Source: a virus. From it: a DNA stretch of 56,927 nt. This document shows, piece after piece, positions 41,819-56,927 of this stretch; the first letter of the stretch is position 1, and each line of letters starts with the position of its first letter. The notes under the pieces were generated by a model. It had not been told where the DNA came from and ran no database searches. It saw nothing but the letters and a program-made list of their open reading frames with translations. The DNA lies in the IMG/VR virus record IMGVR_UViG_3300045988_096557; one strand, given 5' to 3'. The position numbers and the translations under genes are program-made.

Positions 41819-41824
41819 TCTTAT

Positions 41825-41853
41825 TTGATTAATTTATTTAAAAATGTTATAAT
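41825..41853 (+). promoter_or_regulatory. Sigma-70-like promoter: TTGATT, 17 bp, TATAAT.
   Basis: TTGATT 41825-41830, spacer 41831-41847, TATAAT 41848-41853. It is divergent from the late operon promoter. Confidence 0.55.
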
Positions 41854-41890
41854 ATAATTATAAAAAATAAGATAGGAGATTTGTTTGCCA

Positions 41891-43348: not shown

Positions 43349-43349
43349 A

Positions 43350-43511
43350 ATGTGTCCTTGCATTGATTATTGTTATAATAGATTCGGTCGGTAGTACACA
43401 CCAGACTGCGACAATACTTGCGATTATGCAATTAAAGTTAAAGAAAATAAAATGCTTAAAGAATATTTAAAGAGATTAGCGGCGGAAACAAATAGTTTAC
43501 ACACTTTATTT
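43350..43511 (+). CDS. Small Cys-rich protein, 53 aa, with 1 TAG.
   Basis: The ATG lies 2 nt after the previous stop. It contains the Cys-rich segment CPCIDYCY and ends at TGA. Confidence 0.3.
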
Positions 43512-43572
43512 GAAGATTGGGATAATTAAATTATCCACTTCTGCCCAACCGCACGGAAGAAAGGAAACTGCA

Positions 43573-44340: not shown

Positions 44341-44762
44341 TTATTGCGAGGCGAGACTTAAATATGTCTCCAGGGAAACTTGCCGCACAAGTTTCCCATG
44401 CTTCTATTGCTTTTCTTTTGGAAAAGTTATATTGGGGAAGTAAAGAAGTTGTTAAAGAAAGAGACGGTCTTATGTATCATATAGGAATAAGCCTCGATAG
44501 AGACTTATTCCATAATTGGATAGCGGAAGCGGAGACCAAAGTAGTTTGTAGAGCGAAGAATAAGAATGATTTGTTAAAGGCTGTTAAGATAGCAGAAGAA
44601 TTAGGATGGGAAGAGAATAAGGATTATTGGCTTATCTATGATGCTTGTAGAACAGAGTTAGAACGCGAAGGCCCGGAAGGGACTTTGACGTGTATTGGAT
44701 TTAGGCCAATGGAGGCGGAAGAAATTGACAAAATTGGGAAGAAGTATCAGCTTTATAATTAA
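44325..44762 (+). CDS. pth2: Peptidyl-tRNA hydrolase, PTH2 family, 145 aa.
   Basis: Motifs RRDLNMSPGKLAAQVSHASIAF and a C-terminal CIGFRP...IDKIGKKYQLY match the PTH2/Bit1 signature. It overlaps the macro domain gene by 16 nt. Confidence 0.7.
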   Translation: MFKQLIIARRDLNMSPGKLAAQVSHASIAFLLEKLYWGSKEVVKERDGLMYHIGISLDRDLFHNWIAEAETKVVCRAKNKNDLLKAVKIAEELGWEENKDYWLIYDACRTELEREGPEGTLTCIGFRPMEAEEIDKIGKKYQLYN

Positions 44763-44967
44763 TATAGTTTTGATTTTACTATTGTTGACTGCTTGCGTGG
44801 AGGAGAACAATCGCTATCCAAGGCTAGAGTATATTCCTACAATGTGGAGATCTGATGCGATTAATATTAAACTAGAGGATGGATATATCTTAAAAGGATA
44901 TGAAACGATAGAAACTGAGGATGGATATAATTTGATTTTTAGTTTTGAGGCAACCGACGATGGATAA
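44695..44967 (+). CDS. Putative lipoprotein (lipobox LLTAC). The start is uncertain and it overlaps the pth2 3' end.
   Basis: A hydrophobic signal peptide followed by Cys. Confidence 0.35.
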   Translation: MDLGQWRRKKLTKLGRSISFIINIVLILLLLTACVEENNRYPRLEYIPTMWRSDAINIKLEDGYILKGYETIETEDGYNLIFSFEATDDG

Positions 44968-45103
44968 AGTATTAGTATGGTTTGACGGCAAGCATTATTA
45001 TAATATATGCGCAGTCTGTGGAGAATTATATCCAATTTACAAAGTAGAAGATCATATTATATATAATTTAAAAAAGAAGTGTAAATGCGGAGAGAAGAAG
45101 TGA
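44957..45103 (+). CDS. Small zinc-ribbon protein (CxxC...CxC), 48 aa.
   Basis: ATGGATAAAG overlaps the previous stop. It has two Cys pairs and ends at TGA 45101-45103. Confidence 0.3.
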   Translation, partial: TMDKVLVWFDGKHYYNICAVCGELYPIYKVEDHIIYNLKKKCKCGEKK

Positions 45104-45125
45104 GTTCTTCTCTCTTTTCGTTATT
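45091..45125 (+). terminator. Rho-independent terminator candidate.
   Basis: AGAGAAGAA...TTCTTCTCT stem followed by a T-rich tract. Confidence 0.4.
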
Positions 45126-45389
45126 GAGATTGAAAAGTCGATTTAGATTTTGAAATGGCGTGGCAGAACGATTTTACAAAAAAATTTCCAGTTTTTCCCA
45201 AAATACACGCCCCTCTTTCACATGGTAAAGTATTGAAGTGTAGTTGGCCTCTTTCACTCGTTAAAGTACGAAAGCAAGAAAGCACGCCCCCCTAAAGGAA
45301 TACGCGCGCGTAAAGGATTTGTGCAAACTGCACAACAAGATGTTATTTATTTTGTGCAAAAGAGAGAGAAAGAAATTTCAAAAAAACTA

Positions 45390-45418
45390 TTGACAAGTGA
45401 GCATTTTGGTGGTAAACT
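45390..45418 (+). promoter_or_regulatory. Sigma-70-like promoter with an upstream A-tract (TTGACA-17-TGGTAAACT).
   Basis: TTGACA 45390-45395, spacer 45396-45412, TAAACT 45413-45418 preceded by TGG. The upstream tract AAATTTCAAAAAA is UP-element-like. Confidence 0.5.
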
Positions 45419-45486
45419 GGACTTGTCCAGTAGGACAGAGACAAAAGCACGGCACTTTGAAAATTAAAAAAATTTCAAAAAAGGTA

Positions 45487-45515
45487 TTGACAAACTGCTA
45501 AAGGTTTGATACAAT
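45487..45515 (+). promoter_or_regulatory. Consensus sigma-70 promoter with an upstream A-tract (TTGACA-17-TACAAT).
   Basis: TTGACA 45487-45492, spacer 45493-45509, TACAAT 45510-45515. The A-tract element matches that of the previous promoter. Confidence 0.55.
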
Positions 45516-45568
45516 ACAGACAGAACAAAAGAGAACCACACCACAAAAAGAAAGGGAGTCAAAAGAGT

Positions 45569-45943
45569 ATGAAAAAGATTGATTTTACCAATGAAGATCG
45601 AGCCATTATTATGGAGTATATGGCCGCTAAGATGGCTAAGTCTGCGGCGGAGGCGGCGGAGAAAGCAGCTAAGGCTAAGGCTAAAGAGCTATTCTCCAGA
45701 TTAGGTAAGGCTTTTAAGGCTACGGACAAAACAAGTTATCTATATGGCACGGTACAAATGCAGGGTAAGGCGAAAGCGGTGGTATATAAAGAAACTACCG
45801 CAAAAGGAACGGTTGACTGGAAAGCCTATGCTATGGCATTAGGCGGGACAGAGGCCGAAGCAGAGCAATTCCGCAGACCTTCCGATGTTCGTACCTCTTT
45901 TGATTGGGCGACAAAGACCCAAGAAGAAGAAATTAGAGGATAA
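45569..45943 (+). CDS. Hypothetical early protein, 124 aa (possibly Gp157-like).
   Basis: Ribosome-binding site AAAGGGAG, with an ATG at 45569 in frame with the listed ORF 45506..45943. Confidence 0.5.
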   Translation: MKKIDFTNEDRAIIMEYMAAKMAKSAAEAAEKAAKAKAKELFSRLGKAFKATDKTSYLYGTVQMQGKAKAVVYKETTAKGTVDWKAYAMALGGTEAEAEQFRRPSDVRTSFDWATKTQEEEIRG

Positions 45944-45954
45944 CAGTTTATAAA

Positions 45955-45995
45955 CCCTGCCTTGCAAAACACAAGGCAAGGCAGGGTTATAATAA
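45955..45995 (+). terminator. Rho-independent terminator.
   Basis: CCCTGCCTTGC...GCAAGGCAGGG, an 11-bp stem, followed by TTATAATAATT. Confidence 0.5.
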
Positions 45996-46017
45996 TTAAA
46001 AGAAAGGGGCATACTAT

Positions 46018-46164
46018 ATGTATCAGTTACAAGTTTTAGCCAATGAGAAAATGCGCTATTATGAACCATCCACCCTTTCAATGGCAAGATGGAAGGTCAG
46101 TCACGAGATAGTCAATCCTAATCATTGGATTGTGGATTTATCCAGTGGAGAAATCGTAGATTAA
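46018..46164 (+). CDS. Small hypothetical protein, 48 aa.
   Basis: Ribosome-binding site AAAGAAAGGGG plus ATG, ending at TAA 46162-46164. Confidence 0.35.
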   Translation: MYQLQVLANEKMRYYEPSTLSMARWKVSHEIVNPNHWIVDLSSGEIVD

Positions 46165-46210
46165 AAAGAAGCTGACCTAACGGCTATACGGGGAGAAAGG
46201 ATAAAAGACT

Positions 46211-46513
46211 ATGAACAATTATATTAAGTGGTTCGTTGGGCCTACTTTTAGAAAGCGTGAATTTATTAAACTTTTGCGGTATAAGATGAATGTGCGTTCC
46301 GCAGAGGTAGAGGACGGCATCATCTTAGACCTGGATGCTTTTAATGCCATGCGAGTGGCCTATATGCCACACTGGGCTTATATCAATAGAAAGTTTATCA
46401 ATAGCAATCTGCATACCAGAATTGCAAGCGAAGACGAATATAAGGTTGCTATGGTCGGAGATACAATCGGTACTGAATGGGTTAAAGAACAGGAGGCAAA
46501 GAAATGGAAATGA
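46211..46513 (+). CDS. Hypothetical protein, 100 aa.
   Basis: Listed ORF with a ribosome-binding site GGAGAAAGG. Confidence 0.55.
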   Translation: MNNYIKWFVGPTFRKREFIKLLRYKMNVRSAEVEDGIILDLDAFNAMRVAYMPHWAYINRKFINSNLHTRIASEDEYKVAMVGDTIGTEWVKEQEAKKWK

Positions 46514-46656
46514 GAATTATTAAGCGGATAGGAGGCGGCATTTGTGCCGCTCTCCTACTCTGGGCAGTTCTTAGTTGGGCTGATATAGTGGCGGATAACT
46601 GTGAGCCAAACCCACAGCACAGCGAATATAATATGTTCGTTCTCATGACTAAATAA
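46504..46656 (+). CDS. Small membrane peptide, 50 aa.
   Basis: Overlapping ATG with a hydrophobic core GGGICAALLLWAVLSW. Confidence 0.35.
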   Translation: MEMRIIKRIGGGICAALLLWAVLSWADIVADNCEPNPQHSEYNMFVLMTK

Positions 46657-46669
46657 TAGGAGGAAAAAA

Positions 46670-46903
46670 ATGTATAGAGGGACTTATATCGACGCCATGG
46701 GCCGCAAGCGCAGAGAGATGGGATATTTCAGTCTTAATAAGCCCACTCTGAATAAACTCCATATACCAGTAATTGTCCAAGCGAGAGATAAGACAAGTGC
46801 GGCGAATAAAATCAATAGGAAATATAAGTTGCGTATAAGTCCCAGCAATCTACGGGAGGTGCCGATGGGCACAGGCTATCTCATGGAAACCATGGAGCTG
46901 TAA
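46670..46903 (+). CDS. Hypothetical protein, 77 aa.
   Basis: Listed ORF with a ribosome-binding site AGGAGG. Confidence 0.55.
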   Translation: MYRGTYIDAMGRKRREMGYFSLNKPTLNKLHIPVIVQARDKTSAANKINRKYKLRISPSNLREVPMGTGYLMETMEL

Positions 46904-46914
46904 AGGAATAAAAA

Positions 46915-46953
46915 TGACTGGCAATCTGCACAAAGATTGCCAGTCATTTTTAT
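46915..46953 (+). terminator. Rho-independent terminator.
   Basis: TGACTGGCAATC...GATTGCCAGTCA stem followed by TTTTTAT. Confidence 0.6.
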
Positions 46954-46975
46954 GCACTTTTCCATATTGACTTTT

Positions 46976-47116
46976 CGCCGGGCCGCCAGCGTGCGCCGCG
47001 GCCCAAATTTTTATTTATCCGGCAGTTTCAACAATTATATGATCGAAAGTCTGTGCAATTCGACAAAAGATTTTCTCCCGAAATTACTTGACATTCCTCT
47101 TGTCATGTGTTATTAT
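46976..47116 (+). repeat. Early-region intergenic cassette, copy 1: GC-rich hairpin, AAATTTTT, TTTCAACAATT / TGTGCAATT half-sites, and promoter TTGACA-17-TATTAT (47088-47116).
   Basis: Motifs read directly from the sequence. The same architecture recurs at 6 further sites. Confidence 0.6.
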
Positions 47117-47170
47117 ATACTTGTCCAGAGGGACAAGGTCACAAAAAGAATTTGAAAGGAAGTAAAAGAA

Positions 47171-47410
47171 ATGACTTTGAAAATGATTGCAGGTCTGCTT
47201 TCTCCGCTCGCAGAAGATACCATGTTCTTTGACGGGGAAGGGGTCGAAATTATCAATGAGAATACTCAAGCTCATTACCATGAGCTACCTGATCACAAGA
47301 TAACCCTGGGAGGAGACGTCATTGAGGCGTCTAAGGAATGGGTGCTGGGACTTCCGGTAACTGGCATTAAAGCAAGAGGCAACAATCTAATCATTTATGT
47401 AGATGGTTAA
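47171..47410 (+). CDS. Hypothetical protein, 79 aa.
   Basis: Listed ORF with a ribosome-binding site GAAAGGAAG. Confidence 0.55.
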   Translation: MTLKMIAGLLSPLAEDTMFFDGEGVEIINENTQAHYHELPDHKITLGGDVIEASKEWVLGLPVTGIKARGNNLIIYVDG

Positions 47411-47473
47411 GAAAACCTGCGGGAGTGGAGGTTTATGGCCTCCACTCCCCACGATAAAAAAGGAGAAATAAAT

Positions 47474-47689
47474 ATGATTGCTGTTATTAAATTTGAAAGT
47501 GCAGAAAAGTCTGTGGAGTTTGGAAACACAATTTGTAATATGGCTGGTTGGTGTTTGAGTCATCCTCTCAATTCCAATGTTACCGGCTGTGTTCGTACGC
47601 TTGATTTTAATGCCGGCGACAAGCAAGATAGAGCCTTATATAATTATCTGCTAAAAATTGGAGCTTTCGAGGAGGTGGAATTAAAGTGA
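47474..47689 (+). CDS. Hypothetical protein, 71 aa.
   Basis: Ribosome-binding site AAAGGAGAAA, with an ATG at 47474 in frame with the listed ORF 47435..47689. Confidence 0.5.
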   Translation: MIAVIKFESAEKSVEFGNTICNMAGWCLSHPLNSNVTGCVRTLDFNAGDKQDRALYNYLLKIGAFEEVELK

Positions 47690-48095
47690 GTATTGAGCGT
47701 TTACCGCACACATATCCCATTGGCTCCACTGTTTGGACAAATAAGGGATATGGCACAGTTCTACTTCACATTGGTAAATACCATCTGGTTTGGTTACAGA
47801 GATTAGGGTTGGCGTAATGCCGGCCCTATTGATTTTTTCAAAAAAATATATTATAATAATTATAGAAAAATAAAGAAAGGAGTTTTTCTAATGACCTTAG
47901 AAGTGCTGAAAGCATTCGTGGTTATTTTGGAGTTCTGTTTGAACTAGGATTCTTGTAAAAATTGTCCTATGTCTCAGTTCTGCCAGAAAATGCCTTGCGA
48001 GTGGTAAATGTTCCTTCCGATTGTTCTAAATCGGCGATTCCCGTGATGGAGTCGTTTTTCGCACGAGCCTAGGTCACTAGAATTTATTTATCAAA

Positions 48096-48329
48096 ATGCA
48101 AGAAACTACTTTCTCTCGCAAATTAGATTCAAGTGGTAGAATTATGATTCCGATTCGCTTGCGTGAACAAATGGGACTTACTTCCGGTTAGGAATACTAT
48201 TTTACTACTATGGTAAAAGATGGTAGAAAATATATCTGTATTGACTGCGGATCGGTTGATTCCTCGCTTGAAGAAGCTATGAAAATTATCCAAGCAAACG
48301 GATTAAAGATTGTTGAAAATGCCGATTGA
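48096..48329 (+). CDS. Small AbrB/SpoVT-N swapped-hairpin domain protein, 77 aa, with 1 in-frame TAG (48189).
   Basis: SRKLDSSGRIMIPIRLREQMGL matches the AbrB N-domain and is paralogous to the N-terminus of the protein encoded at 49554..50015. Confidence 0.45.
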
Positions 48330-48371
48330 CTTCTCAAAAGAAAGGGAGTTGTTGGTATGCAGAAATTAATG

Positions 48372-48403
48372 ACCTCCTGAAATTCAGGAGGTTCTTTTTT
48401 TTT
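48372..48403 (+). terminator. Rho-independent terminator.
   Basis: CCTCCTG...CAGGAGG stem followed by a T9 run. A 7-codon mini-ORF (ATG 48357) ends inside the stem. Confidence 0.6.
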
Positions 48404-48410
48404 ATTCGTT

Positions 48411-48551
48411 CGCCCGGCCGTGCACCACAGGCGCGGCCGGAATTTTTTATCAAGAGGCAATTTGCACAATTTTAGGCTCGAATTGTTGTGCAATCTGACG
48501 AAAGATTTTTTCCTAAAATCGCTTGACTTTCTGCTTTGCCTATGGTATATT
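48411..48551 (+). repeat. Early-region cassette, copy 2: GC-rich hairpin, GAATTTTTT, TTGCACAATTTT...TTGTGCAAT dyad, and promoter TTGACT-17-TATATT (48523-48551).
   Basis: Motifs read directly from the sequence. Confidence 0.6.
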
Positions 48552-48604
48552 ATTATCAGAAAGAGGGAGACAGAAACACCTCGAAAGAAAGGAAAGAAAA
48601 AATC

Positions 48605-48862
48605 ATGGAAGAAAAGAAAATGATTTTGGTCACGGACGGATACGACGATAAACCTATCTGCGTAGCGTCTAATACCATCGCCGCCCGCAAGTCTGCGTTG
48701 GATTATCTGGAAAATCAATATGACGATGGAGAATGGGAGGCTATTCTGGAAGAAGATGGATATAAAAATCGTGATGACCTTTTCCATGATATGATGTTAG
48801 GCATGGAAAGCGAATGGGAGCGTTTCAATATTAACTTTGCGGAAGTTTCCTTTGCGGGGTGA
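48605..48862 (+). CDS. Hypothetical acidic protein, 85 aa.
   Basis: Ribosome-binding site AAAGGAAAG, with an ATG at 48605 in frame with the listed ORF. Confidence 0.5.
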   Translation: MEEKKMILVTDGYDDKPICVASNTIAARKSALDYLENQYDDGEWEAILEEDGYKNRDDLFHDMMLGMESEWERFNINFAEVSFAG

Positions 48863-48866
48863 GTAT

Positions 48867-49019
48867 ATGACAACTTTTACCATGATAATTCTGATTGCTT
48901 TTGTTCTGTGTCTGGTATGGCAATTTGTAGCCGCTATTGAAAAAGATTGCATAGGACTTGAAATCATGTTTGCGGCGGAAATCTTAATGTTCGCATATCT
49001 TGCAAAAACTTTGATGTAA
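48867..49019 (+). CDS. Small membrane protein, 50 aa.
   Basis: ATG 48867 with a hydrophobic core. Confidence 0.4.
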   Translation: MTTFTMIILIAFVLCLVWQFVAAIEKDCIGLEIMFAAEILMFAYLAKTLM

Positions 49020-49024
49020 GGGGT

Positions 49025-49053
49025 TGACAAATCGCCCCAACTATGGTACAATA
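49025..49053 (+). promoter_or_regulatory. Consensus sigma-70 promoter: TTGACA-17-TACAAT.
   Basis: GGGGTTGACAAATCGCCCCAACTATGGTACAAT. Confidence 0.55.
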
Positions 49054-49114
49054 AGACCATGGAAGGGACGACCCCGATAAATAAAAATTAAAATTAAGAA
49101 AGGAAGTTTTGGAA

Positions 49115-49501
49115 ATGCGTGTTAGTAAGGTTGTTCGGGAGTATATTGAAAAGGAAGTTGGAGTAAAGGCTGAAATCAAGAGGCAGGCTGTCCATGAAAC
49201 CTTTTCCGCTTATGAGACAGAGTGTAAAATCATGCAGGAGAAAGTTAAGCAGGCGGTAAAAGCCCTTAACGACGAACTTCTTTCGGAGGTTAAAAACAAG
49301 GGGATGAGTTTCCGCAGATATAATGACCGGCTGGTAGAGGCTTGCCAGGATTGTATTTACCCCGCTATGGAGAACGAGAAGAAAAAGGCCATGCGGGAAG
49401 TTAGCGACTGGGAGAAAAATGCCGTAACGGAAATTATTCTTACGCTTGAGTTGGGTGGTACTAAAGCTGACCTCGAACGGATGTTGAAAGAACTGGATTA
49501 A
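49115..49501 (+). CDS. Hypothetical protein, 128 aa.
   Basis: Ribosome-binding site AGAAAGGAAG plus ATG 49115, in frame with the listed ORF 49109..49501. Confidence 0.55.
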   Translation: MRVSKVVREYIEKEVGVKAEIKRQAVHETFSAYETECKIMQEKVKQAVKALNDELLSEVKNKGMSFRRYNDRLVEACQDCIYPAMENEKKKAMREVSDWEKNAVTEIILTLELGGTKADLERMLKELD

Positions 49502-49513
49502 GAAGGGAGGAAG

Positions 49514-49544
49514 GGAGTGCAAGACTATAAATCTTGCACTCCCG
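49514..49544 (+). other. Perfect 12-bp stem-loop (GGGAGTGCAAGA...TCTTGCACTCCC) in a 5' UTR, with no T-tract.
   Basis: An inverted repeat seen directly. A related hairpin beginning GGGAGTGGAGG lies at 47417-47447. Confidence 0.4.
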
Positions 49545-49553
49545 CAGATAAAA

Positions 49554-50015
49554 ATGAAAGCTACTGGAATTGTGCGCCGTATTGATGATTTGGGCCGGAT
49601 AGTAATTCCAAAGGAAATCCGTAGAAACCTTCATATTAGAGAAGGCGACCCATTAGAGATTTTTCTTGAAGAAGATGGCGGCGTAGTTTTTAAGAAATAT
49701 TCTATAATGGGAGAATTTTCCTCTTACGCTAAACAAATGCAAAATGCCCTTTCATCTAACGGAATCGCCGCGGCTATTTTTGACAATGATGGAATTTTAT
49801 GCGGGCCGCGTTCCTTTGGAATTACAAGAGTTCCCGATGACTGGATTGATATTCGCAGTTCGGCGACAAAATGGGAAAGTATGTTTATTACACCAATTCT
49901 TGTGAATGGCGACCAGGTTGGTTTTATTTGCTATAAAAATAGCAATAACGAAGAATCTGTCCATGACATGGTTAAACTTTCTGCAAGATTTCTTGCAAAT
50001 ATATGTGAAAGTTAA
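49554..50015 (+). CDS. SpoVT/AbrB-family transcriptional regulator (AbrB N-domain plus a GAF-like C-domain), 153 aa.
   Basis: The N-terminus GIVRRIDDLGRIVIPKEIRRNLHIREGDPLEIF is a near-canonical SpoVT/AbrB swapped-hairpin domain. The overall length and a C-terminal domain of about 100 aa resemble SpoVT. Confidence 0.6.
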   Translation: MKATGIVRRIDDLGRIVIPKEIRRNLHIREGDPLEIFLEEDGGVVFKKYSIMGEFSSYAKQMQNALSSNGIAAAIFDNDGILCGPRSFGITRVPDDWIDIRSSATKWESMFITPILVNGDQVGFICYKNSNNEESVHDMVKLSARFLANICES

Positions 50016-50040
50016 AAGAGGGCTTCGGCCCTCTTTTTTA
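50016..50040 (+). terminator. Rho-independent terminator (AGAGGGCTTCGGCCCTCT followed by TTTTTT).
   Basis: A GC stem with a T-run. The same stem sequence recurs at 50909 and 52303. Confidence 0.65.
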
Positions 50041-50064
50041 TCCCATTTTTTGAATAGGCTTCTC

Positions 50065-50182
50065 GGCGGCGCGCTAACGTGCGTGGCGCGCCGAATTTTC
50101 TCTTTTGTAGAAGTTGCACAATTTTCCAGCCGAAATTTTGTGCAGTTTGCCTCTTGTTTTCTATCCCGAAATCTGATATACT
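50065..50182 (+). repeat. Early-region cassette, copy 3: GC-rich hairpin, GAATTTT, TTGCACAATTTT...AAATTTTGTGCAG dyad, and promoter TTGTTT-17-TATACT (50154-50182).
   Basis: Motifs read directly from the sequence. Confidence 0.55.
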
Positions 50183-50214
50183 TTAATCAACCTAAAGAAA
50201 GGAAGTAAATCAAA

Positions 50215-50679
50215 ATGAAAAAGATGCTCTGCTTTGATATGGATGGAACAATCGCTGACCTGTACGGCGTGGATGATTGGTTAAAAGATTTAATGAATGA
50301 AAATCCCTATCCATATACAGTCGCCAAACCTCTTTGCGATATAGAAGAATTGAATACCGTTCTTAATAAACTCATTGAGCAGGGCTGGGAAATTCGGGTT
50401 ATCAGTTGGCTTGCAAAAGACAGTTCTAACTCATATAAAACTGCTGTTCGTGACGCAAAGCGCATTTGGCTTGCAAAATACAACTTCCCCGCACATAAAG
50501 TCCACCTTGTGGAATATGGCACAACAAAAGCAAATTGTGTGCGGAAACACTTTGAGCCGGGAATTAGCAATTTCATTTTGATTGATGATAATAAAAGTGT
50601 GCGGGATGGCTGGCATTTAGGGGAAACAATCGAGCCACATGAAGATTTACCTACGGCCTTATGGCGACTGGTAGAGTAA
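50215..50679 (+). CDS. HAD-superfamily 5'(3')-deoxyribonucleotidase-like hydrolase, 154 aa.
   Basis: N-terminal HAD motif I CFDMDGTIADL, and an LIDD motif near the C-terminus. Confidence 0.55.
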   Translation: MKKMLCFDMDGTIADLYGVDDWLKDLMNENPYPYTVAKPLCDIEELNTVLNKLIEQGWEIRVISWLAKDSSNSYKTAVRDAKRIWLAKYNFPAHKVHLVEYGTTKANCVRKHFEPGISNFILIDDNKSVRDGWHLGETIEPHEDLPTALWRLVE

Positions 50680-50719
50680 TCCACCAGTCAATCTTAAAAT
50701 AAGAAAGGAAGTTTTGTAA

Positions 50720-50908
50720 ATGAAGATTAGAAAGGTTAATAGGCTTATCCTCAGCGAGGAAGAGCGACAAGTATTGAAAAATGCGTCCATTCTCATTGGT
50801 CAAATTGATCAGGTTATGGCCGACAATGAAATTGATGACGATATTTCGCTTGAAGATTTGAGCTATTGGCTTGACGAGATTATCAATAAAGAATATCTTG
50901 GATATTAA
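50720..50908 (+). CDS. Hypothetical acidic protein, 62 aa.
   Basis: Listed ORF with a ribosome-binding site AGAAAGGAAG. Confidence 0.5.
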   Translation: MKIRKVNRLILSEEERQVLKNASILIGQIDQVMADNEIDDDISLEDLSYWLDEIINKEYLGY

Positions 50909-50932
50909 GAGGGCTTCGGCCCTCTTATTTTT
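50909..50932 (+). terminator. Rho-independent terminator (AGAGGGCTTCGGCCCTCT followed by TATTTTT).
   Basis: A GC stem with a T-run. Confidence 0.6.
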
Positions 50933-50952
50933 ACTCTTTAATATCGTTTGGG

Positions 50953-51069
50953 CGGCTCGCTGGCGCACGCGGCGAGCCGAGTTTTTGTTTTTGTCGATGT
51001 TGCACAATTTTGGCTTGCAAATTTTGTGCAATTTGCCATCTTGTAATTATCCCGAAAGTATGGTATTAT
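50953..51069 (+). repeat. Early-region cassette, copy 4: GC-rich hairpin, AGTTTTT, TTGCACAATTTT...AAATTTTGTGCAA dyad, and promoter TTGTAA-17-TATTAT (51041-51069).
   Basis: Motifs read directly from the sequence. The downstream leader of about 160 nt has only a tiny RBS-led ORF. Confidence 0.55.
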
Positions 51070-51232
51070 ATATTTGTCAAGAGGGGAAGGCCAAGAAATC
51101 AAGAGGTCGCGAACTCTTAGAAAGTAAAGGAAGTAAATTTATATTGTGTCGTAAGTCGAGTGAACGCCGTTAGAATAGGCCGTTCTAATGCCCAGTAGCT
51201 TGCAGTAAATCGCAATAAAAATTTCCTTTTCC

Positions 51233-51261
51233 TCTTGACATCAAGCATGATATGTGCTATA
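51233..51261 (+). promoter_or_regulatory. Consensus sigma-70 promoter: TTGACA-17-TATAAT.
   Basis: CTCTTGACATCAAGCATGATATGTGCTATAAT. Confidence 0.55.
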
Positions 51262-51295
51262 ATAAACTCAACAAGAGGAAAGGAAGTCAAAGATT

Positions 51296-52087
51296 ATGAT
51301 TGATAAGCGTAGACACTATGTTTTGGTGGTTGATACTGAAACTGCTAACACACTGACTGAAACTGACGAAAACGGCAAAGCCCGCATGGATATGAGTTGC
51401 GTTCTTGTCTATGATTGCGGATGGGCGGTAGTGGATACCAAGGGCAATATTTATGAAACTGCCAGTTTTGTAAATAGGGACATTTTCAACGATGAGCGGG
51501 ATCTCATGCGGACTGCTTATTATAATTGGAAAATTCCCCGCTATATTGAGGAACTGCGGGCCGGCACTCGTAAAATGGCTACCACTTATGAAATCCGCCA
51601 AGCTATGCTCAATACCATTGAGCGATACGGCATTAAGGAAGTTGCGGCTTATAATGCCAGATTTGACGATAATGCCTTGAGAGTTACACAGCGTTATGTG
51701 ACCTACTCCAAGTGGCGTTATTGGTTCCCGTTTGACAGCGTGGAGATTTGGGATATTATGAAGATGACACAGGATGTTATCTGCAATATGCCCACTTATA
51801 AGAAATTCTGTCAGGAAAACGGATATGTCCAGGCTAATGGTGTCCCCCGCAAGACTGCGGAAATCGTATGGCGGTATATCTCCGGCAATAATGAGTTTGA
51901 GGAAAGCCATACGGGATTGGAAGATGTGCTGATTGAAGCGGAAATTATGTGGTATTGTATGCGACAGCACAAGCCCATGAGAAAAGCTCTTTATGAGAAT
52001 AGGAAGGAATTTCCTCCCATGACCGATTTTCAGAGGCGGCTTTCCGCAAGTTTGAAGAATAATCCGACAATCCGGGTTGGGGCTTAA
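51296..52087 (+). CDS. DEDDh-family 3'-5' exonuclease (DnaQ-like), 263 aa.
   Basis: Exo I motif VLVVDTETAN, the Exo II region, and an Exo III motif HTGLEDVLIEAEI. Confidence 0.6.
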   Translation: MIDKRRHYVLVVDTETANTLTETDENGKARMDMSCVLVYDCGWAVVDTKGNIYETASFVNRDIFNDERDLMRTAYYNWKIPRYIEELRAGTRKMATTYEIRQAMLNTIERYGIKEVAAYNARFDDNALRVTQRYVTYSKWRYWFPFDSVEIWDIMKMTQDVICNMPTYKKFCQENGYVQANGVPRKTAEIVWRYISGNNEFEESHTGLEDVLIEAEIMWYCMRQHKPMRKALYENRKEFPPMTDFQRRLSASLKNNPTIRVGA

Positions 52088-52115
52088 AGCCCCGCCCGGT
52101 AGAAAGGACAGAGAT

Positions 52116-52298
52116 ATGAGAACTGAAAAAATTTGGTTCGACTTTATGAACGCCGATTGCCAATATCAGGCAAGAAAGGTCATTGAGCGAATGGGATGGA
52201 CTATTGATGAAAATCTCGATGGCGATGGCGGCTATCCTGTTCATTTCCCCGAAGAGGATTTAGGACTGTTTGAATTTCTTGATATATGCTGGTCATAA
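52116..52298 (+). CDS. Hypothetical acidic protein, 60 aa.
   Basis: Ribosome-binding site GAAAGGACAGAG plus ATG 52116, in frame with the listed ORF 52077..52298. Confidence 0.45.
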   Translation: MRTEKIWFDFMNADCQYQARKVIERMGWTIDENLDGDGGYPVHFPEEDLGLFEFLDICWS

Positions 52299-52302
52299 AG
52301 GA

Positions 52303-52328
52303 AGGGCTTCGGCCCTTCTTTTTTATAC
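52303..52328 (+). terminator. Rho-independent terminator (GAAGGGCTTCGGCCCTTC followed by TTTTTT).
   Basis: A GC stem with a T-run. Confidence 0.6.
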
Positions 52329-52341
52329 CTCGAAAAGTCAG

Positions 52342-52501
52342 CGGCCCGCGGATGGCTGACGCGGGCCGAATTTTTCAATGGTAATGTTGCACAAAAATTT
52401 CGCCCCGTTTTTGTACAAAATTCTGCACAAAAACTTTCTCCCAAAATCCTGATTTTTTGTGCAATTTGACGCTTGCAATCTGTTTCCACTTGTGTTACAA
52501 T
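52342..52501 (+). repeat. Early-region cassette, copy 5: GC-rich hairpin, GAATTTTT, four TTGCACAA / TTGTGCAA-type half-sites, and promoter TTGCAA-17-TACAAT (52473-52501).
   Basis: Motifs read directly from the sequence. Confidence 0.55.
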
Positions 52502-52571
52502 ACTATCAGAAAGTGAGAGAGACGAACGGCAGACAGCGACAGCGAACTTTCAGAAATCTTTCAAAAACCCC

Positions 52572-52860
52572 TTGACAAGCCTTTGCAAGTGTGATATAAT
52601 CATTACAGAAAGCAAGGCAAGGCACCTTGAAAATTTTCAAAAAAAGACTTGACAAACCGCCTTGAATGTGCTATACTAAAGGCGTAAAGAGGAAAGCCAA
52701 ACGGTTTTGAAACGGCGAGTAGCGACAGTCAAAAAAGTTTGAAAAACCTCTTGACAAACGCAAGAAGTTGTGGTACAATAAAGGCACAGTAAAGGTTATA
52801 GCATACCAGTCCCGGTTGAGAGAAAAATCTCTTGACAAACGGAAAAAGGTATGATATAAT
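52572..52860 (+). promoter_or_regulatory. Array of four tandem consensus sigma-70 promoters, each with an upstream TTTCAAAAA / TTTGAAAAA A-tract and an extended -10: P1 52572-52600, P2 52649-52677, P3 52751-52779, P4 52832-52860.
   Basis: Each is TTGACA, exactly 17 bp, then TATAAT / TATACT / TACAAT / TATAAT with TGn upstream. Confidence 0.6.
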
Positions 52861-52906
52861 AAATACATCAAGGGTGACGACCTACCGTCAGAAAGGAAGT
52901 ATCATT

Positions 52907-53308
52907 ATGAGCGAGAAGAAAGTCCGTATCACTAAGGCCCAGCGTTTCGAGGACATCAAGGCCCTTCTGAATGGCGACCCCGTGACATATGGCACGACCC
53001 CGGAGATTGCGGTCACTGTTATTGACCATGAGCTGGAGCTTCTGGCGAAGAAGAACTCTGGTAGCGGCGATAAGAAGTTGACCCCGACCCAGCAGGAGAA
53101 CGAGGCGCTCAAGGAGCAGATTGTGGAGTACCTGTCCACTCTGCCCGATGACACCGATGGCGTGACCTGCACGGAGATTTTGAAGTCCGTGCCTGCCCTG
53201 ACTGATTTTAGCAATCAGAAAGTGGCGGCTCTGGTGCGTCAGCTCAAGATGGCCGGCCGTGTCGTGGCTACGGAGAAAAAGGGCAAGTCCCTGTTCCGTA
53301 TGGCCTAA
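52907..53308 (+). CDS. Hypothetical protein, 133 aa, GC-rich, with a possible winged-helix C-terminus.
   Basis: Ribosome-binding site GAAAGGAAGT plus ATG 52907. Markedly higher GC than the flanking DNA. Confidence 0.55.
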   Translation: MSEKKVRITKAQRFEDIKALLNGDPVTYGTTPEIAVTVIDHELELLAKKNSGSGDKKLTPTQQENEALKEQIVEYLSTLPDDTDGVTCTEILKSVPALTDFSNQKVAALVRQLKMAGRVVATEKKGKSLFRMA

Positions 53309-53343
53309 CCCCGATAGGGCGGGGTGAAATATCCCCGCCCTAC
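53309..53343 (+). terminator. Stem-loop / terminator candidate (AGGGCGGGG...CCCCGCCCT).
   Basis: A 9-bp GC stem. A similar hairpin lies at 53771-53797. Confidence 0.4.
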
Positions 53344-53414
53344 TAAATAAGAAAAGGGGTGATACCATAAGTAGCAGAATTACGGATGCCGAGCGGATCG
53401 CAAGGTATAAGGGC

Positions 53415-53765
53415 TTGAACCTATCCCCGCAAGAGGAAAAGGATTTACTTGCCTATGATAAGGCCGTTGAAGCGGGGGGGCGGACGCAGTATGACCTCCC
53501 CCCGGATAAGGCAAAAGTAGCGCAGAAATTCGCCCATGCGGGAACACGGAAAGCGCCCACCGCCTACAAGTTTACGCCCCGGCAGAGAAAACCCAACGCA
53601 ACTAAAGGGGGCATTATCGCAGAGCTTGCAGAGTTTCTGGAAAAGAATAGTCAGTTTTCCATTGTAAATCTGCAAGTCACCAACAAGGAACGGCAGATAG
53701 CCTTTTCTATTGGTGAGGACAGTTTCGAGTTGACGCTTGTGCAAAAGCGAAAACCGAAGAAATAA
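53415..53765 (+). CDS. Hypothetical basic protein, 116 aa, GC-rich (TTG start as listed).
   Basis: Listed ORF. No strong ribosome-binding site. Confidence 0.4.
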   Translation: MNLSPQEEKDLLAYDKAVEAGGRTQYDLPPDKAKVAQKFAHAGTRKAPTAYKFTPRQRKPNATKGGIIAELAEFLEKNSQFSIVNLQVTNKERQIAFSIGEDSFELTLVQKRKPKK

Positions 53766-53843
53766 CCGGGATAGGCGGGATACCGTCTATCCCGCCTCCC
53801 AAAAGGAAGTGATACTATCCGCCGTGAGAAAGAGTTTCTGTAT

Positions 53844-54164
53844 GTGGGGCATTATGTGGACACAAAAGGCCGTTATATCCTGAAAATAGGAACGACAAAC
53901 GACCTAAAGCGCAGAGCCGCAGAGCATACAAGGAATTACAAGAAAACCCGTGAGTTTACCATGCCGGAAAATTCCTGTTTTGTCTATGACTGGTGGCGTC
54001 CTCTTTCCAAGTATAATACTTTGAGATATGAGGACGCAAACCGGGCAAGATGGCAAGATATGGGAATTGGGCGTTTCATCAGGAACGACAGATTTTTCTG
54101 TGAGAAAAAACCTGACATGGTAACAATTACCATTCGCAAAACCTATACTATCCCGCTGGCATAG
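53844..54164 (+). CDS. GIY-YIG nuclease domain protein, about 106 aa, GC-rich. The start is uncertain and the gene ends with TAG.
   Basis: GHYVDTKGRYILKIGTTNDLKRRAAEH resembles the GIY-x10-YIG...R...E motif. Confidence 0.45.
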   Translation: MGHYVDTKGRYILKIGTTNDLKRRAAEHTRNYKKTREFTMPENSCFVYDWWRPLSKYNTLRYEDANRARWQDMGIGRFIRNDRFFCEKKPDMVTITIRKTYTIPLA

Positions 54165-54180
54165 TCCAGCGGGATTTTTT
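54140..54180 (+). terminator. Rho-independent terminator (TCCCGCTGG...CCAGCGGGA followed by T7).
   Basis: A stem with a T-run overlapping the gene's 3' end. Confidence 0.6.
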
Positions 54181-54204
54181 TCGTCATTTTGCACAAAAGC
54201 CCTG

Positions 54205-54324
54205 GGCGGCGCGTTTGCGGTTGCAACGCGCCGAATTTTTCGTTTACTAGTAATTTCAACAATTTTATCGGAAAAAATCGGTACAAATCGTTTAATTGAC
54301 TTTTCCCGAATTTCATGTTATAAT
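54205..54324 (+). repeat. Early-region cassette, copy 6: GC-rich hairpin, GAATTTTT, degenerate half-sites, and promoter TTGACT-17-TATAAT (54296-54324).
   Basis: Motifs read directly from the sequence. Confidence 0.55.
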
Positions 54325-54349
54325 AGAAGAAACAAAGGAGGAATTTAAA

Positions 54350-54964
54350 ATGATTTTTGATTTAGATTAGTTACTTGAGTTTTTTCATGCGTCTAAATCT
54401 ACCGTTACAACAAATTTTCCTAAATTTGCTTCTAATCAAGCTAAAAAAGGATATTTAATTACTAAATAGGGAATTGGCAAAGAAGCAACTTATGAAGTAG
54501 AAAAAATTACACCTAAATATATTGATCCTTCAAACTTTTCTAATCGAAAGATTGAAATCGCAGAGTCTCTCCCCGGAGAAATTTGGAAGACTACTTATTG
54601 CTCCAATAAGCATGAAGTTTCCAATCTTGGTAGAATAAGACGAAAAGATAATAAAACATTGATTAAAGGATCAATGACCTCAGACGGATATTTAAAAACA
54701 GAAATAATAAGAAATACTCCCCTCAGAATCCATCGAATTGTAATGCAAACTTTCAATCCTATTGAAAATTTTGAAACTAAAGTAGTAGATCACATCAATG
54801 GAGTTAGAACAGATAATAGACTTGAAAATCTACGTTGGGCCTCCCCAGAAGAAAATACTCTCTTGATGTTAAAAAATCGAGAGGAAATTACTCGTGAAAC
54901 TACTAGACTTATAAATAAGTATGGATATGAAAAAACGCTTGAATTAATTCAAGCAATACCTTGA
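54350..54964 (+). CDS. HNH homing endonuclease (NUMOD4 plus HNH), 204 aa, with 2 in-frame TAGs (54368, 54467).
   Basis: GEIWKTTYCSNKHEVSNLGRIRR...DGYL...HRIV...VDHINGVRTDNRLENLRWASPEEN is a classic HNH_3 motif set. Ribosome-binding site AAAGGAGG. The listed ORF 54659..54964 extends upstream in frame across two TAGs. Confidence 0.65.
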
Positions 54965-54968
54965 TATT

Positions 54969-56795: not shown

Positions 56796-56927
56796 GCCTT
56801 AATCCTCCTACTCATCGCTTTTTCACAAATACATAAAAAAGTCGCGACTGTTATCTTAACTCTGTTATCTAATATATGTTATATTTGTTGTATTGTCAGA
56901 ATACCATGAAATGGATTTTTATTTACT

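What the first reader, a model, noticed from the sequence alone, without database searches (positions are those of the whole stretch)
52572..54180. Four back-to-back consensus promoters feeding a GC-rich gene island
Within 290 bp lie four promoters. Each is an exact TTGACA, 17 bp, then TATAAT, TATACT, TACAAT or TATAAT. Each has an extended -10 TG and an upstream TTTCAAAAA / TTTGAAAAA UP-like element. They lie at 52572, 52649, 52751 and 52832. The cassette-5 promoter at 52473 sits just upstream, making five in a row.

They precede three genes (52907-54164) whose GC content is visibly far higher than the rest of the phage. Examples are CCCCGTGACATATGGCACGACCCCGGAGATTGCGGTC and ACGCCCCGGCAGAGAAAACCCAACGC.

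The island contains a possible winged-helix protein, a basic unknown protein, and a GIY-YIG nuclease-like protein that ends at TAG rather than TAA or TGA. This suggests a horizontally acquired module under maximal early expression, or a promoter array that titrates host RNA polymerase.

Each promoter is followed by 40 to 70 nt of non-coding transcript, so short RNAs are also possible.
Basis: seen in the sequence. Interest (0 to 1): 0.65.

Follow-up and report, generated by a model that had tools for sequence, protein, structure and literature searches.

The report
Stacked early promoters driving phage operon
Four textbook-perfect bacterial promoters stacked head to tail drive a conserved three-gene early operon of an uncultivated gut phage that reads the TAG stop codon as an amino acid; the high GC is codon tuning of a very highly expressed first gene, not recently imported DNA.

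Summary
Four exact TTGACA-17 bp-TGnTAnAnT promoters sit at 52572, 52649, 52751 and 52832, with a weaker one at 52473. All point the same way and no terminator separates them. They feed three genes that end at an intrinsic terminator (54150-54182). That stretch is the most GC-rich of its size in the window (0.507 against a mean of 0.350).

The "acquired island" reading fails. About 30 related phage contigs (genomes of about 100-160 kb, TAG read as sense in late genes) carry the same module in the same place, behind 1-4 stacked promoters. Across relatives the -35 hexamers, the TG and the A-tracts are invariant while the spacers drift. Gene 1 (a winged-helix protein) keeps third-position GC (GC3) at 0.67-0.80 in most lineages, against 0.22 in late genes. 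That points to selection on codon usage rather than recent import.

New here: genes 2 and 3 start at ATA and ATC (ATT, ACG in relatives) after strong ribosome-binding sites, and conserved hairpins precede them. This implies gene 1 is made in far greater amounts than genes 2 and 3.

I found no support for short RNAs or for titration of RNA polymerase. The arrangement is a phage early-promoter cluster of a known kind (T7 A1-A3, phi29 A2b/A2c) with an unusual translational design. The protein functions remain unknown.

The parts
52338..52373 (+). GC-rich hairpin + CCGAATTT: copy 5 of a 7-copy promoter/terminator junction element that bounds the early cassettes
   Evidence: family D1 (copies at 46975, 48410, 50063, 50949, 52338, 54203, 54968). 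Stem sequences differ between copies while the flanks are conserved. Terminator-like.
52385..52472 (+). Operator-like TGCACAA / TTGTGCA repeats upstream of the junction promoter
   Evidence: families D5, D9, D14. Conserved in relatives (alignment A2). Any role as a regulator-binding site is inferred.
52473..52501 (+). Junction promoter P0: TTGCAA-17-TACAAT with TG (9 of 12 matches)
   Evidence: Conserved in relatives.
52508..52548 (+). Conserved purine-rich leader block, containing the motif ACGGCAGACAGCGACAG (52526-52542)
   Evidence: 73% of columns invariant, against 37% over the whole alignment. The motif recurs at 52712-52728, with 0.06 matches expected by chance. Function unknown.
52563..52600 (+). 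Promoter 1: A-tract, TTGACA (52572), 17 bp, TGa, TATAAT
   Evidence: Orthologous in relatives.
52640..52677 (+). Promoter 2: A-tract, TTGACA (52649), 17 bp, TGc, TATACT
52712..52728 (+). Second copy of the conserved motif ACGGCGAGTAGCGACAG, between promoters 2 and 3
   Evidence: Also present in L015 and in L017.
52742..52779 (+). Promoter 3: A-tract, TTGACA (52751), 17 bp, TGg, TACAAT
52823..52860 (+). Promoter 4: A-tract, TTGACA (52832), 17 bp, TGa, TATAAT. This unit aligns to a gap in the three-promoter relatives of alignment A2.
   Evidence: It falls in a gap of alignment A2. Present in the 92-95% identical contigs L033 and L034.
52891..52899 (+). Shine-Dalgarno sequence GAAAGGAAG, 7 nt before the gene 1 ATG
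52907..53308 (+). Gene 1 (133 aa): helical N-terminus plus C-terminal winged helix; ATG start; GC3 0.74
   Evidence: AlphaFold model with pLDDT 89.8. Foldseek matches only winged-helix domains. 395 unnamed homologues.
53315..53342 (+). Intercistronic GC hairpin with no T-run (TAGGGCGGGG-N8-CCCCGCCCTA)
   Evidence: Conserved as a structure, with 6 of 9 pairs showing compensatory changes. In L009 it is followed by a T-run.
53367..53765 (+). Gene 2 (132 aa, basic, unknown fold), starting at ATA 7 nt after the SD-like AAAAGGGGTGA
   Evidence: 2635 homologues, none with a functional name. AlphaFold pLDDT 78, no fold match.
53773..53797 (+). Second intercistronic GC hairpin (AGGCGGGATA-N5-TATCCCGCCT)
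   Evidence: A hairpin of different sequence sits at the same place in relatives.
53817..54164 (+). Gene 3 (115 aa, T5orf172 / GIY-YIG-like), starting at ATC 7 nt after AAAAGGAAG and ending in TAG
54150..54182 (+). Intrinsic terminator of the operon (10-bp stem, then a run of seven T)
54203..54238 (+). Junction element copy 6, which closes the cassette

Best explanation
This is the most strongly driven early operon in the window. The window comes from a phage of roughly 148 kb whose late genes read TAG as a sense codon. Its host is probably a gut Clostridia bacterium.

Transcription. Four full-consensus host sigma-A/sigma-70 promoters stand head to tail. Each has an A-tract in the position of the proximal UP-element subsite, TTGACA, a 17-bp spacer, an extended -10 TG, and a -10 hexamer. 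A weaker promoter linked to operator-like repeats lies upstream. No terminator separates them, so they should add their initiations into nested transcripts of one three-gene operon that ends at the terminator at 54150-54182.

Gene 1. It has ATG, a strong SD and a codon set unlike the rest of the phage: GC3 0.74, GAG 11/11, CAG 6/6, CGT+CGC 5/5. It is built for mass production by the unmodified host machinery, under the standard code, straight after DNA entry.

Genes 2 and 3. Each lies behind a conserved GC hairpin and starts at a near-cognate codon (ATA, ATC). They should therefore be made at a small fraction of the gene 1 level.

The high GC is thus a signature of expression level and host tRNA pool, kept by selection, and not a mark of recent import.

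What is shown: the anatomy, the conservation, the codon statistics and the start-codon positions. What is inferred: promoter activity, early timing, the expression ratio, and the roles of the proteins. My guess for those roles is that gene 1 is an abundant DNA-binding takeover or regulatory protein and gene 3 is a nuclease-like enzyme needed in small amounts.
For: Promoter anatomy and chance expectation.

Strict promoter matches occur only on the + strand between 45.3 and 52.9 kb. There are none in the 38-kb TAG-recoded late block on the - strand.

The stack recurs upstream of gene 1 in all relatives: three promoters in most, four in the window, L033 and L034, one in L006, L008 and L025. L025 looks like a hybrid of the first and last promoters.

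In alignment A2, invariant columns are 18/18 for the -35 hexamers, 6/6 for TG, 14/18 for the -10 hexamers and 15/18 for the A-tracts. The figure is 31% for spacers and 37% overall.

There is no + strand terminator inside the stack.

The module keeps its position in about 30 contigs.

Gene 1 GC3 is 0.67-0.80 in most lineages and always above its neighbours. The codon gradient runs late 0.22, early 0.425, gene 1 0.74.

Start codons. The N-termini are conserved with synonymous changes, including AGT to TCC for serine. The codon 6-8 nt after the SD is ATA, ATC, ATT or ACG. The same position is ATG in L025 (gene 3), L008 (gene 2) and L036 (gene 3), and GTG in L006 (gene 2). All other early genes in the window start at ATG or TTG.

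In E. coli, AUA, AUC and AUU initiate at 1-2% of AUG, and most other codons at 0.1-1% (bioRxiv 10.1101/063800).

The hairpin after gene 1 covaries.
Against: No expression data exist. Promoter strength, timing and the protein ratio are all inferred.

The host and its codon preferences are unknown. The only pointers are binning of near-identical contigs into Eubacterium and Oscillospiraceae MAGs and an AbrB/SpoVT-like gene.

In L008, gene 2 sits in its own cassette with two strong promoters and an ATG start. Low dosage of gene 2 is therefore not universal.

Start-codon efficiencies were measured in E. coli, not in Clostridia.

Relatives with a single promoter (L006, L008, L025) show the stack is not essential.

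None of the three proteins matches a functionally characterised protein.
Confidence: 0.65

Rival explanations
1. One reading: a GC-rich module recently acquired by horizontal transfer and placed under strong promoters.
For: Composition is atypical: GC 0.507 against 0.35, the maximum in the window. The families of genes 2 and 3 (2635 and 1321 proteins) are wider than that of gene 1 (395), and L008 shows the genes can sit in separate cassettes, so they do move among phages over long time spans. The early region is a mosaic between 92-95% identical genomes.
Against: The module is present at the same position in all close relatives and in relatives down to about 60% identity in gene 2. The GC3 excess of gene 1 persists down to 47% protein identity (L008, GC3 0.78), and even the two AT-richer lineages keep gene 1 above its neighbours. 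Gene 3 composition (GC 0.44) is like that of the other early genes. No integrase or tRNA gene flanks the module. The neighbouring HNH gene is a separate AT-rich indel.
Confidence: 0.1
2. The promoter stack acts mainly as a sink that titrates host RNA polymerase away from host genes, or as a T7-like motor site where transcription pulls the genome into the cell.
For: There are five strong sites per genome copy. In T7, three host promoters within the first roughly 1 kb drive genome entry (PMC3737178). Several independent contigs, including the window, end about 2.7 kb downstream of the operon.
Against: The promoters are always coupled to gene 1, with a conserved SD and ATG, so they serve expression. 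Five sites are very few compared with a cell's pool of RNA polymerase (inference). The contig ends fall in a repeat that L010, L011 and L014 read through. In L034 the module lies mid-contig, so a physical genome end here is unproven. The promoters fire towards that break, not into the bulk of the genome.
Confidence: 0.08
3. Each promoter makes its own short non-coding RNA, or the conserved leader and spacer motifs encode a regulatory RNA.
For: There are 46-73 nt between promoters. The P0 leader block is 73% invariant and the motif ACGGCRRNNAGCGACAG occurs twice. The 408-nt leader folds better than shuffled sequence (z = -4.86).
Against: There is no + strand terminator within the stack and no Rfam match. 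Units are gained and lost among relatives, from 1 to 4. Sequence downstream of each -10 is no more conserved than the spacers (33% against 31% invariant). The folding z-score is expected to be inflated by the repeated promoter units (inference).
Confidence: 0.08
4. The stack is neutral debris: promoters left behind when cassettes were deleted by recombination between repeated promoter/terminator junctions.
For: The early region is built of cassettes bounded by 7 junction repeats. It is a mosaic between near-identical genomes. L025 shows recombination between promoters. A comparable process is described for T4-type PeSL elements (PMC2839356, PMC4122927).
Against: The four strong promoters lack the junction hairpin and the TGCACAA repeats, so they are a different class. 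Three or four copies persist across lineages with about 60% identity in gene 2, with invariant promoter elements and drifting spacers. That is purifying selection on each copy.
Confidence: 0.09

Closest known systems
Phage T7 early promoters A1, A2, A3 (host RNA polymerase), upstream of gene 0.3
   Same: Several strong host-type promoters stand head to tail within a few hundred bp. They feed the first early genes of a lytic phage, which later switches to its own transcription specificity. T7 is cited from PMC3737178. Here the phage encodes a sigma-factor-like protein at 40718-41833.
   Different: There are four or five promoters rather than three. A position at the leading genome end is unproven here. 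The downstream proteins are unrelated. The host is Gram-positive-like and the promoters carry an extended -10. Copy number varies from 1 to 4 among relatives.
[quoted passage not shown]
   Same: Adjacent sigma-A early promoters in a Firmicutes phage drive an operon whose first product (p6) is a nucleoid-type DNA-binding protein (PMC3100819). That matches the layout here, with a DNA-binding-fold protein encoded first.
   Different: There is no sequence or fold relation between gene 1 and p6. No divergent late promoter or p4-like sites were found. There are two promoters in phi29 against four or five here.
PeSL (promoter-early stem-loop) cassettes of T4-type phages
   Same: The seven junction elements (terminator hairpin plus early promoter) bound small early genes. 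They lie near the breakpoints between near-identical genomes, as described for PeSLs (PMC2839356, PMC4122927).
   Different: The sequences, the host group and the TGCACAA repeats all differ. The four consensus promoters of the finding are not junction elements themselves.
Non-canonical start codons used for dosage or feedback control (E. coli infC and pcnB, both AUU)
   Same: A near-cognate AUH or ACG start follows a good SD, which is expected to cut initiation to about 1% (bioRxiv 10.1101/063800).
   Different: Here two adjacent phage genes carry such starts, and the trait is conserved across many genomes while the codon itself changes (ATA, ATC, ATT, ACG). No link to IF3 has been shown.
Standard-code early genes and recoded late genes in stop-codon-recoded gut phages
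   Same: The early + strand block has no in-frame TAG, while the late - strand genes carry up to 102 TAG codons.
   Different: What is added here is a three-step gradient of codon usage that peaks in the first gene behind the promoter stack.

Membership tests
Sigma-70/sigma-A promoter with extended -10 | -35 hexamer TTGACA | tested here: met
   Exact in all four promoters. Invariant in 18/18 alignment columns.
Sigma-70/sigma-A promoter with extended -10 | 17 +/- 1 bp spacer and a -10 hexamer close to TATAAT | tested here: met
   17 bp in all four. The -10 hexamers are TATAAT twice, TATACT once and TACAAT once.
Sigma-70/sigma-A promoter with extended -10 | TG one base upstream of the -10 hexamer | tested here: met
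   TGa, TGc, TGg and TGa. Invariant in relatives.
Sigma-70/sigma-A promoter with extended -10 | A-rich UP element upstream of the -35 hexamer | tested here: inconclusive
   An A5-6 tract lies 4 nt upstream of each -35 hexamer, with 15/18 columns invariant. This fits the proximal UP subsite as I recall it. Contact with the alpha subunit C-terminal domain cannot be tested here.
Sigma-70/sigma-A promoter with extended -10 | Initiates transcription with host RNA polymerase | not testable with these tools
   Needs 5' end mapping or in vitro transcription.
Tandem early promoter cluster of the T7 A1-A3 type | Three or more co-directional host-type promoters within about 300 bp, with no terminator between them | tested here: met
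   Four promoters within 289 bp, plus one more 99 bp upstream. No + strand terminator lies among them.
Tandem early promoter cluster of the T7 A1-A3 type | Located at the genome end that enters the cell first | tested here: inconclusive
   Several contigs end about 2.7 kb downstream, in a repeat. Others read through it, and L034 has the module mid-contig.
Tandem early promoter cluster of the T7 A1-A3 type | Expressed immediately after infection | not testable with these tools
   Only indirect: the block uses the standard code and host-type promoters.
Horizontally acquired genomic island | Atypical base composition | tested here: met
   GC 0.507 against 0.350, the maximum in the window.
Horizontally acquired genomic island | Presence/absence polymorphism among close relatives | tested here: not met
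   Genes 1 and 2 were found in every related locus that covers this position. Gene 3 is missing only in the distant relatives L008, L009 and L037. No relative was found at all in L032.
Horizontally acquired genomic island | Composition drifting towards that of the recipient genome | tested here: not met
   Gene 1 GC3 is 0.67-0.80 in most lineages, down to 47% protein identity in L008. It stays above its neighbours in the two AT-richer lineages as well.
GIY-YIG / T5orf172 nuclease superfamily (gene 3) | Match to the family profile above the curated cut-off | tested here: met
   T5orf172 PF10544 scores 24.9 bits against a cut-off of 20. The same Pfam is precomputed for homologues.
GIY-YIG / T5orf172 nuclease superfamily (gene 3) | Match to the GIY-YIG catalytic domain profile PF01541 | tested here: not met
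   16.8 bits against a cut-off of 22.6. A profile search of PDB sequences found nothing.
GIY-YIG / T5orf172 nuclease superfamily (gene 3) | Nuclease activity and an intact catalytic Arg/Glu/Asn set | not tested
   Invariant Y9, G25, R32/R33, E36, E72 and N90 are listed. They were not mapped onto a structure.
Winged-helix DNA-binding proteins (gene 1) | Winged helix-turn-helix fold | tested here: met
   AlphaFold pLDDT 89.8. The C-terminal H-H-H-strand-strand unit matches Z-alpha, ArsR/SmtB and AspA winged helices at TM (target-normalised) up to 0.84.
Winged-helix DNA-binding proteins (gene 1) | Membership of a named sequence family | tested here: not met
   RPA_C scores 22.0 bits against a cut-off of 22.6. 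No PDB sequence match.
PeSL-like promoter/terminator junction cassettes (surroundings) | Composite stem-loop plus early promoter, repeated at gene-cassette borders | tested here: met
   Seven copies, each followed by a promoter-like site.
PeSL-like promoter/terminator junction cassettes (surroundings) | Indel breakpoints between close relatives fall at the elements | tested here: inconclusive
   BLAST segments of L033 and L034 against the window break near 50016-50063, 50904, 51085, 54266 and 54966. These lie close to junction copies. The correspondence was not tested statistically.

The most novel reading that the evidence does not exclude
The near-cognate start codons of genes 2 and 3 (ATA, ATC, ATT or ACG, conserved across the phage family) may be more than a fixed attenuator. 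They could act as a switch that senses the fidelity of translation initiation. On this reading the immediate-early operon floods the cell with the gene 1 protein at once. Genes 2 and 3, including the nuclease-like protein, would be translated only once start-codon discrimination by the host (IF3) relaxes during takeover. The TAG stop of gene 3 would then be read through after the switch to TAG-as-glutamine, adding 45 residues. That would amount to a translational timer built into a hyper-transcribed operon.
Probability: 0.12. Interest if true: 0.7.

Novelty: new member of a known kind. Interest (0 to 1): 0.42.

Why it matters
Stacked host-type promoters at the head of a phage early operon are classical, so the finding as first stated is not new biology. 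Its value lies in three things.

First, it marks the likely first-expressed operon of a large, widespread, uncultivated family of TAG-recoded gut phages. That gives experimenters three small, conserved, uncharacterised proteins to test for host takeover or counter-defence.

Second, the three-step codon gradient (GC3 0.22, 0.43, 0.74) fits the idea that such phages write their earliest genes in the host's codon dialect and their late genes in their own. It may also help guess the host.

Third, the conserved non-AUG, non-GUG, non-UUG starts are rare in bacteria. Gene callers mis-annotate them: homologue N-termini differ widely. They make translational control of dosage or timing in a phage operon directly testable.

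The promoters themselves are compact, natural, maximal-consensus parts for Gram-positive expression work.

Tried and rejected
- Nucleotide searches of the island and of 22 kb of the late region against 50,697 GenBank phage records found nothing.
- Pfam, PHROGs and PADLOC gave no function for gene 2. For gene 1 they gave only matches below the cut-off or of marginal E-value.
- Profile searches of PDB sequences with the gene 1 and gene 3 alignments found nothing.
- Foldseek returned only generic winged-helix matches for gene 1 (PDB and BFVD) and nothing for gene 2 (PDB).
- Rfam at a permissive E-value found nothing in the stack. There is no tRNA gene in the window.
- I considered a replication origin. 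The cumulative GC skew turns near 41-42 kb, at the switch of gene strand, not at 52.6 kb. I dropped the idea.
- I considered a chimeric assembly as the cause of the GC jump. I rejected it because TAG-recoded, AT-rich genes flank the early block on both sides and because many independent contigs share the layout.
- I considered a real - strand gene under the stack (ORF 52671-52871). I rejected it because units are gained and lost among relatives.
- I considered that genes 2 and 3 start at the first canonical codons (TTG 53415, GTG 53844). I rejected this because the upstream residues are conserved as protein, with synonymous changes. For gene 3 the upstream stretch also contains the conserved FLYVG strand.
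- I did not use the representative-protein search or the metagenome contig scan. Neither would have added annotation.
Full report
**The observation.** The sequence at 52.47-52.86 kb holds four exact TTGACA hexamers. Each is followed by 17 bp that end in TGn, and then by TATAAT, TATACT, TACAAT or TATAAT. They lie at 52572, 52649, 52751 and 52832, all on the + strand. A weaker TTGCAA-17-TACAAT promoter lies at 52473.

The composite pattern A5-N4-TTGACAA-N13-TGnTAnAnT occurs six times in the 56.9-kb window, against 0.00 expected from shuffles. The six are these four plus a pair at 45381 and 45478. Gaps between the promoters are 46-73 nt. Three of the four have TTT[C/G]AAAAA upstream; the fourth has GAGAAAAA. 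No + strand terminator lies inside the stack.

The three genes that follow span 52907-54164 and have GC 0.507. That is the highest of all same-size windows (mean 0.350, sd 0.041). The excess is uneven: GC3 is 0.74 in gene 1, 0.56 in gene 2 and 0.50 in gene 3.

**Context.** The window comes from an uncultivated phage and has no nucleotide match in GenBank phage records. Reading TAG as sense raises the longest open frame from 1395 to 8742 nt. It also turns the - strand from 3.4 to 41.8 kb into a continuous block of large genes, with up to 102 in-frame TAG codons in one gene. That block includes virion proteins and a sigma-factor-like gene. Its genes stop only at TAA or TGA.

From about 42.9 kb to 54.2 kb the annotated + strand genes have no in-frame TAG. 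The two leftmost + strand frames (41864-42995) carry several TAG codons and may be recoded. From about 45.3 kb on, this block carries host-type promoters and intrinsic terminators. Strict consensus promoters occur only there and only on the + strand.

The block encodes small orphan proteins plus a microbial-type PARG, a PTH2 peptidyl-tRNA hydrolase and an AbrB/SpoVT-like regulator. Its cassettes are bounded by seven copies of a composite element: a GC hairpin, CCGAATTT, TGCACAA/TTGTGCA repeats and a moderate promoter. The stack and its three genes fill the cassette between copies 5 (52338) and 6 (54203).

**Relatives.** Searches with gene 1, with the upstream exonuclease-like gene and with the gene 2 alignment returned 37 loci from contigs up to 164 kb. 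Two contigs, of 147.8 and 149.0 kb, are 92-95% identical to the window across this region. They were binned into Eubacterium and Oscillospiraceae MAGs.

The gene 1-2-3 module is present, at the same position, in every locus that covers this position except L008, L009 and L037. Those three lack gene 3, and L008 also splits the module. A stack of the same promoter class precedes gene 1 in every related locus examined. There are three promoters in most, four in the window, L033 and L034, and one in L006, L008 and L025. The single L025 promoter combines the spacer of the first promoter with the downstream sequence of the last. That indicates copy-number change by recombination between promoters.

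In a seven-genome alignment the -35 hexamers (18/18 columns), the TG (6/6), the -10 hexamers (14/18) and the A-tracts (15/18) are invariant. Only 31% of spacer columns, 33% of columns just downstream and 37% of all columns are invariant. Selection therefore acts on each promoter as a promoter.

**The GC excess.** Gene 1 has GC3 of 0.67-0.80 in most lineages, including one with only 47% protein identity. In the two AT-richer lineages it still exceeds its neighbours.

Within the window, codon use forms a gradient: late genes have GC3 0.22, other early genes 0.425 and gene 1 0.74. Gene 1 uses GAG 11/11, CAG 6/6, CGT+CGC 5/5 and GGC 6/7. It uses CTG for 8 of 14 leucines, against 1% in late genes.

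A bias that persists this long and peaks in the gene behind the promoter stack is what selection on the codon usage of a very highly expressed gene predicts. This assumes a host that prefers GC-ending codons. It is not what recent import predicts. The "island" is an old, fixed part of this phage family.

Genes 2 and 3 have no ATG, GTG or TTG at their conserved N-termini. Seven nucleotides after a strong SD sits ATA (53367) for gene 2 and ATC (53817) for gene 3.

The residues that follow are conserved across relatives with many synonymous changes, for example AGT to TCC for serine. That stretch is therefore translated. At the same codon position relatives have ATA, ATC, ATT or ACG. In a few they have ATG (L025 gene 3, L008 gene 2, L036 gene 3) or GTG (L006 gene 2), which fixes the start site.

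Every other early gene in the window starts at ATG or TTG. In E. coli, AUA, AUC and AUU initiate at 1-2% of AUG and most other codons at 0.1-1%. Only two natural non-canonical starts are confirmed there (bioRxiv 10.1101/063800).

A GC hairpin with no T-run follows gene 1, and another follows gene 2. The first shows compensatory changes in 6 of 9 pairs. The design therefore points to gene 1 being made in far greater amounts than genes 2 and 3.

One caveat applies. In L008, gene 2 sits in its own cassette with strong promoters and an ATG start.

**The proteins.** Gene 1 (133 aa) folds with high confidence (pLDDT 89.8) into helices plus a C-terminal winged helix. Only generic winged-helix structures and uncharacterised phage proteins match it. 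Gene 2 (basic, pLDDT 78) matches nothing. Gene 3 passes the T5orf172 cut-off but not the GIY-YIG one. The three families hold 395, 2635 and 1321 proteins, almost all unnamed. No PADLOC model matches. Function remains inferred.

**Mechanism and rivals.** I read this as a stack of constitutive host-type promoters whose initiations add up into one operon. That gives the fastest possible build-up of the gene 1 protein straight after DNA entry, before the code switch. Hairpins and weak start codons then set a low dose for genes 2 and 3.

The rivals are each given 0.1 or less in the structured fields. They are recent import, an RNA polymerase sink or T7-like entry motor, short RNAs, and neutral promoter debris.

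Two observations remain unexplained. One is the conserved purine-rich leader of the junction promoter, with the twice-repeated motif ACGGCRRNNAGCGACAG. The other is the fact that the window and two other contigs end in the same repeat about 2.7 kb downstream.

**Comparison with known systems.** The layout works like the T7 A1-A3 cluster (PMC3737178) and the phi29 A2b/A2c early promoters, which drive an operon headed by the nucleoid-type protein p6 (PMC3100819). The surrounding junction elements work like the PeSL promoter/terminator cassettes of T4-type phages (PMC2839356, PMC4122927). None of the sequences or proteins is related to those systems.

**Verdict.** This is a new member of a known kind: a tandem early promoter cluster. 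It has an unusual and conserved translational design. Interest is moderate.

Noticed in passing
window 3429-41833 (- strand) versus about 42900-54200 (+ strand): The phage reads TAG as a sense codon in its late genes. One 2914-codon frame holds up to 102 in-frame TAG codons, and late genes stop only at TAA (19) or TGA (6). The annotated + strand early genes from about 42.9 kb on have no in-frame TAG.
   Followed up: partly
window 53367 and 53817; the same codon position in L006-L037: Genes 2 and 3 of the operon start at ATA and ATC (ATT or ACG in relatives; ATG or GTG in a few) 6-8 nt after a strong SD. Gene callers place the N-termini of homologues at many different positions.
   Followed up: yes
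window 46975, 48410, 50063, 50949, 52338, 54203, 54968: Seven copies of a composite junction element bound the early cassettes. Each has a GC hairpin whose stem sequence varies, then CCGAATTT, TGCACAA/TTGTGCA repeats and a moderate promoter. Breakpoints against 92-95% identical genomes fall near them, as with PeSL elements.
   Followed up: partly
window 45381-45515, feeding gene 45569-45943: A second, two-promoter stack of exactly the same promoter class (A-tract, TTGACAA, TGn, -10). It lies upstream of an alanine/lysine-rich 124-aa orphan protein with GC3 0.50.
   Followed up: no
window 54351-54964 (+): An HNH endonuclease gene with two in-frame TAG codons and GC 0.31, right after the GC-rich operon. 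The stretch 54266-54966 has no counterpart in the near-identical contigs L033 and L034. This gene, not the GC-rich module, is the indel.
   Followed up: partly
window 54162-54299: Gene 3 ends in TAG. If TAG is read as glutamine later in infection, the protein would gain 45 residues, up to the TGA at 54297-54299. Relatives such as L017 end gene 3 in TGA, so this is not conserved.
   Followed up: partly
window 52526-52542 and 52712-52728: The motif ACGGCRRNNAGCGACAG occurs twice, only inside the promoter stack, with 0.06 matches expected by chance. The first copy lies in a leader block that is 73% invariant across relatives. Function unknown.
   Followed up: partly
window 40718-41833 (-) and 1058-2284 (+): A sigma-factor-like gene with 11 in-frame TAG codons (PHROG 5767), which is a candidate late-transcription specificity factor. 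Also a reverse transcriptase gene (PHROG 1423, E 2.8e-84).
   Followed up: no
window 43573-44340 and 44325-44762 (+): Early genes for a microbial-type poly(ADP-ribose) glycohydrolase (PF10021, 92.8 bits) and a PTH2 peptidyl-tRNA hydrolase (PF01981, 80.5 bits). An AbrB/SpoVT-like regulator lies at 49554-50015.
   Followed up: no
window 56808-56927 (right end); ends of L002 and L005: The window and two independent IMG/VR contigs stop within a few tens of bases of each other, in the same repeat (…GGTATTGTCAGAATACCATGAAATGG…). L010, L011 and L014 read through it. This is either an assembly break at a repeat or a feature near a genome end.
   Followed up: partly
L025 9784; L008 1700-3750: L025 has a single promoter that is a hybrid of the first and last promoters of the three-promoter stack. 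L008 splits the module: gene 1 sits behind one promoter, and gene 2 sits in its own cassette with two promoters and an ATG start. Gene 3 is absent.
   Followed up: yes
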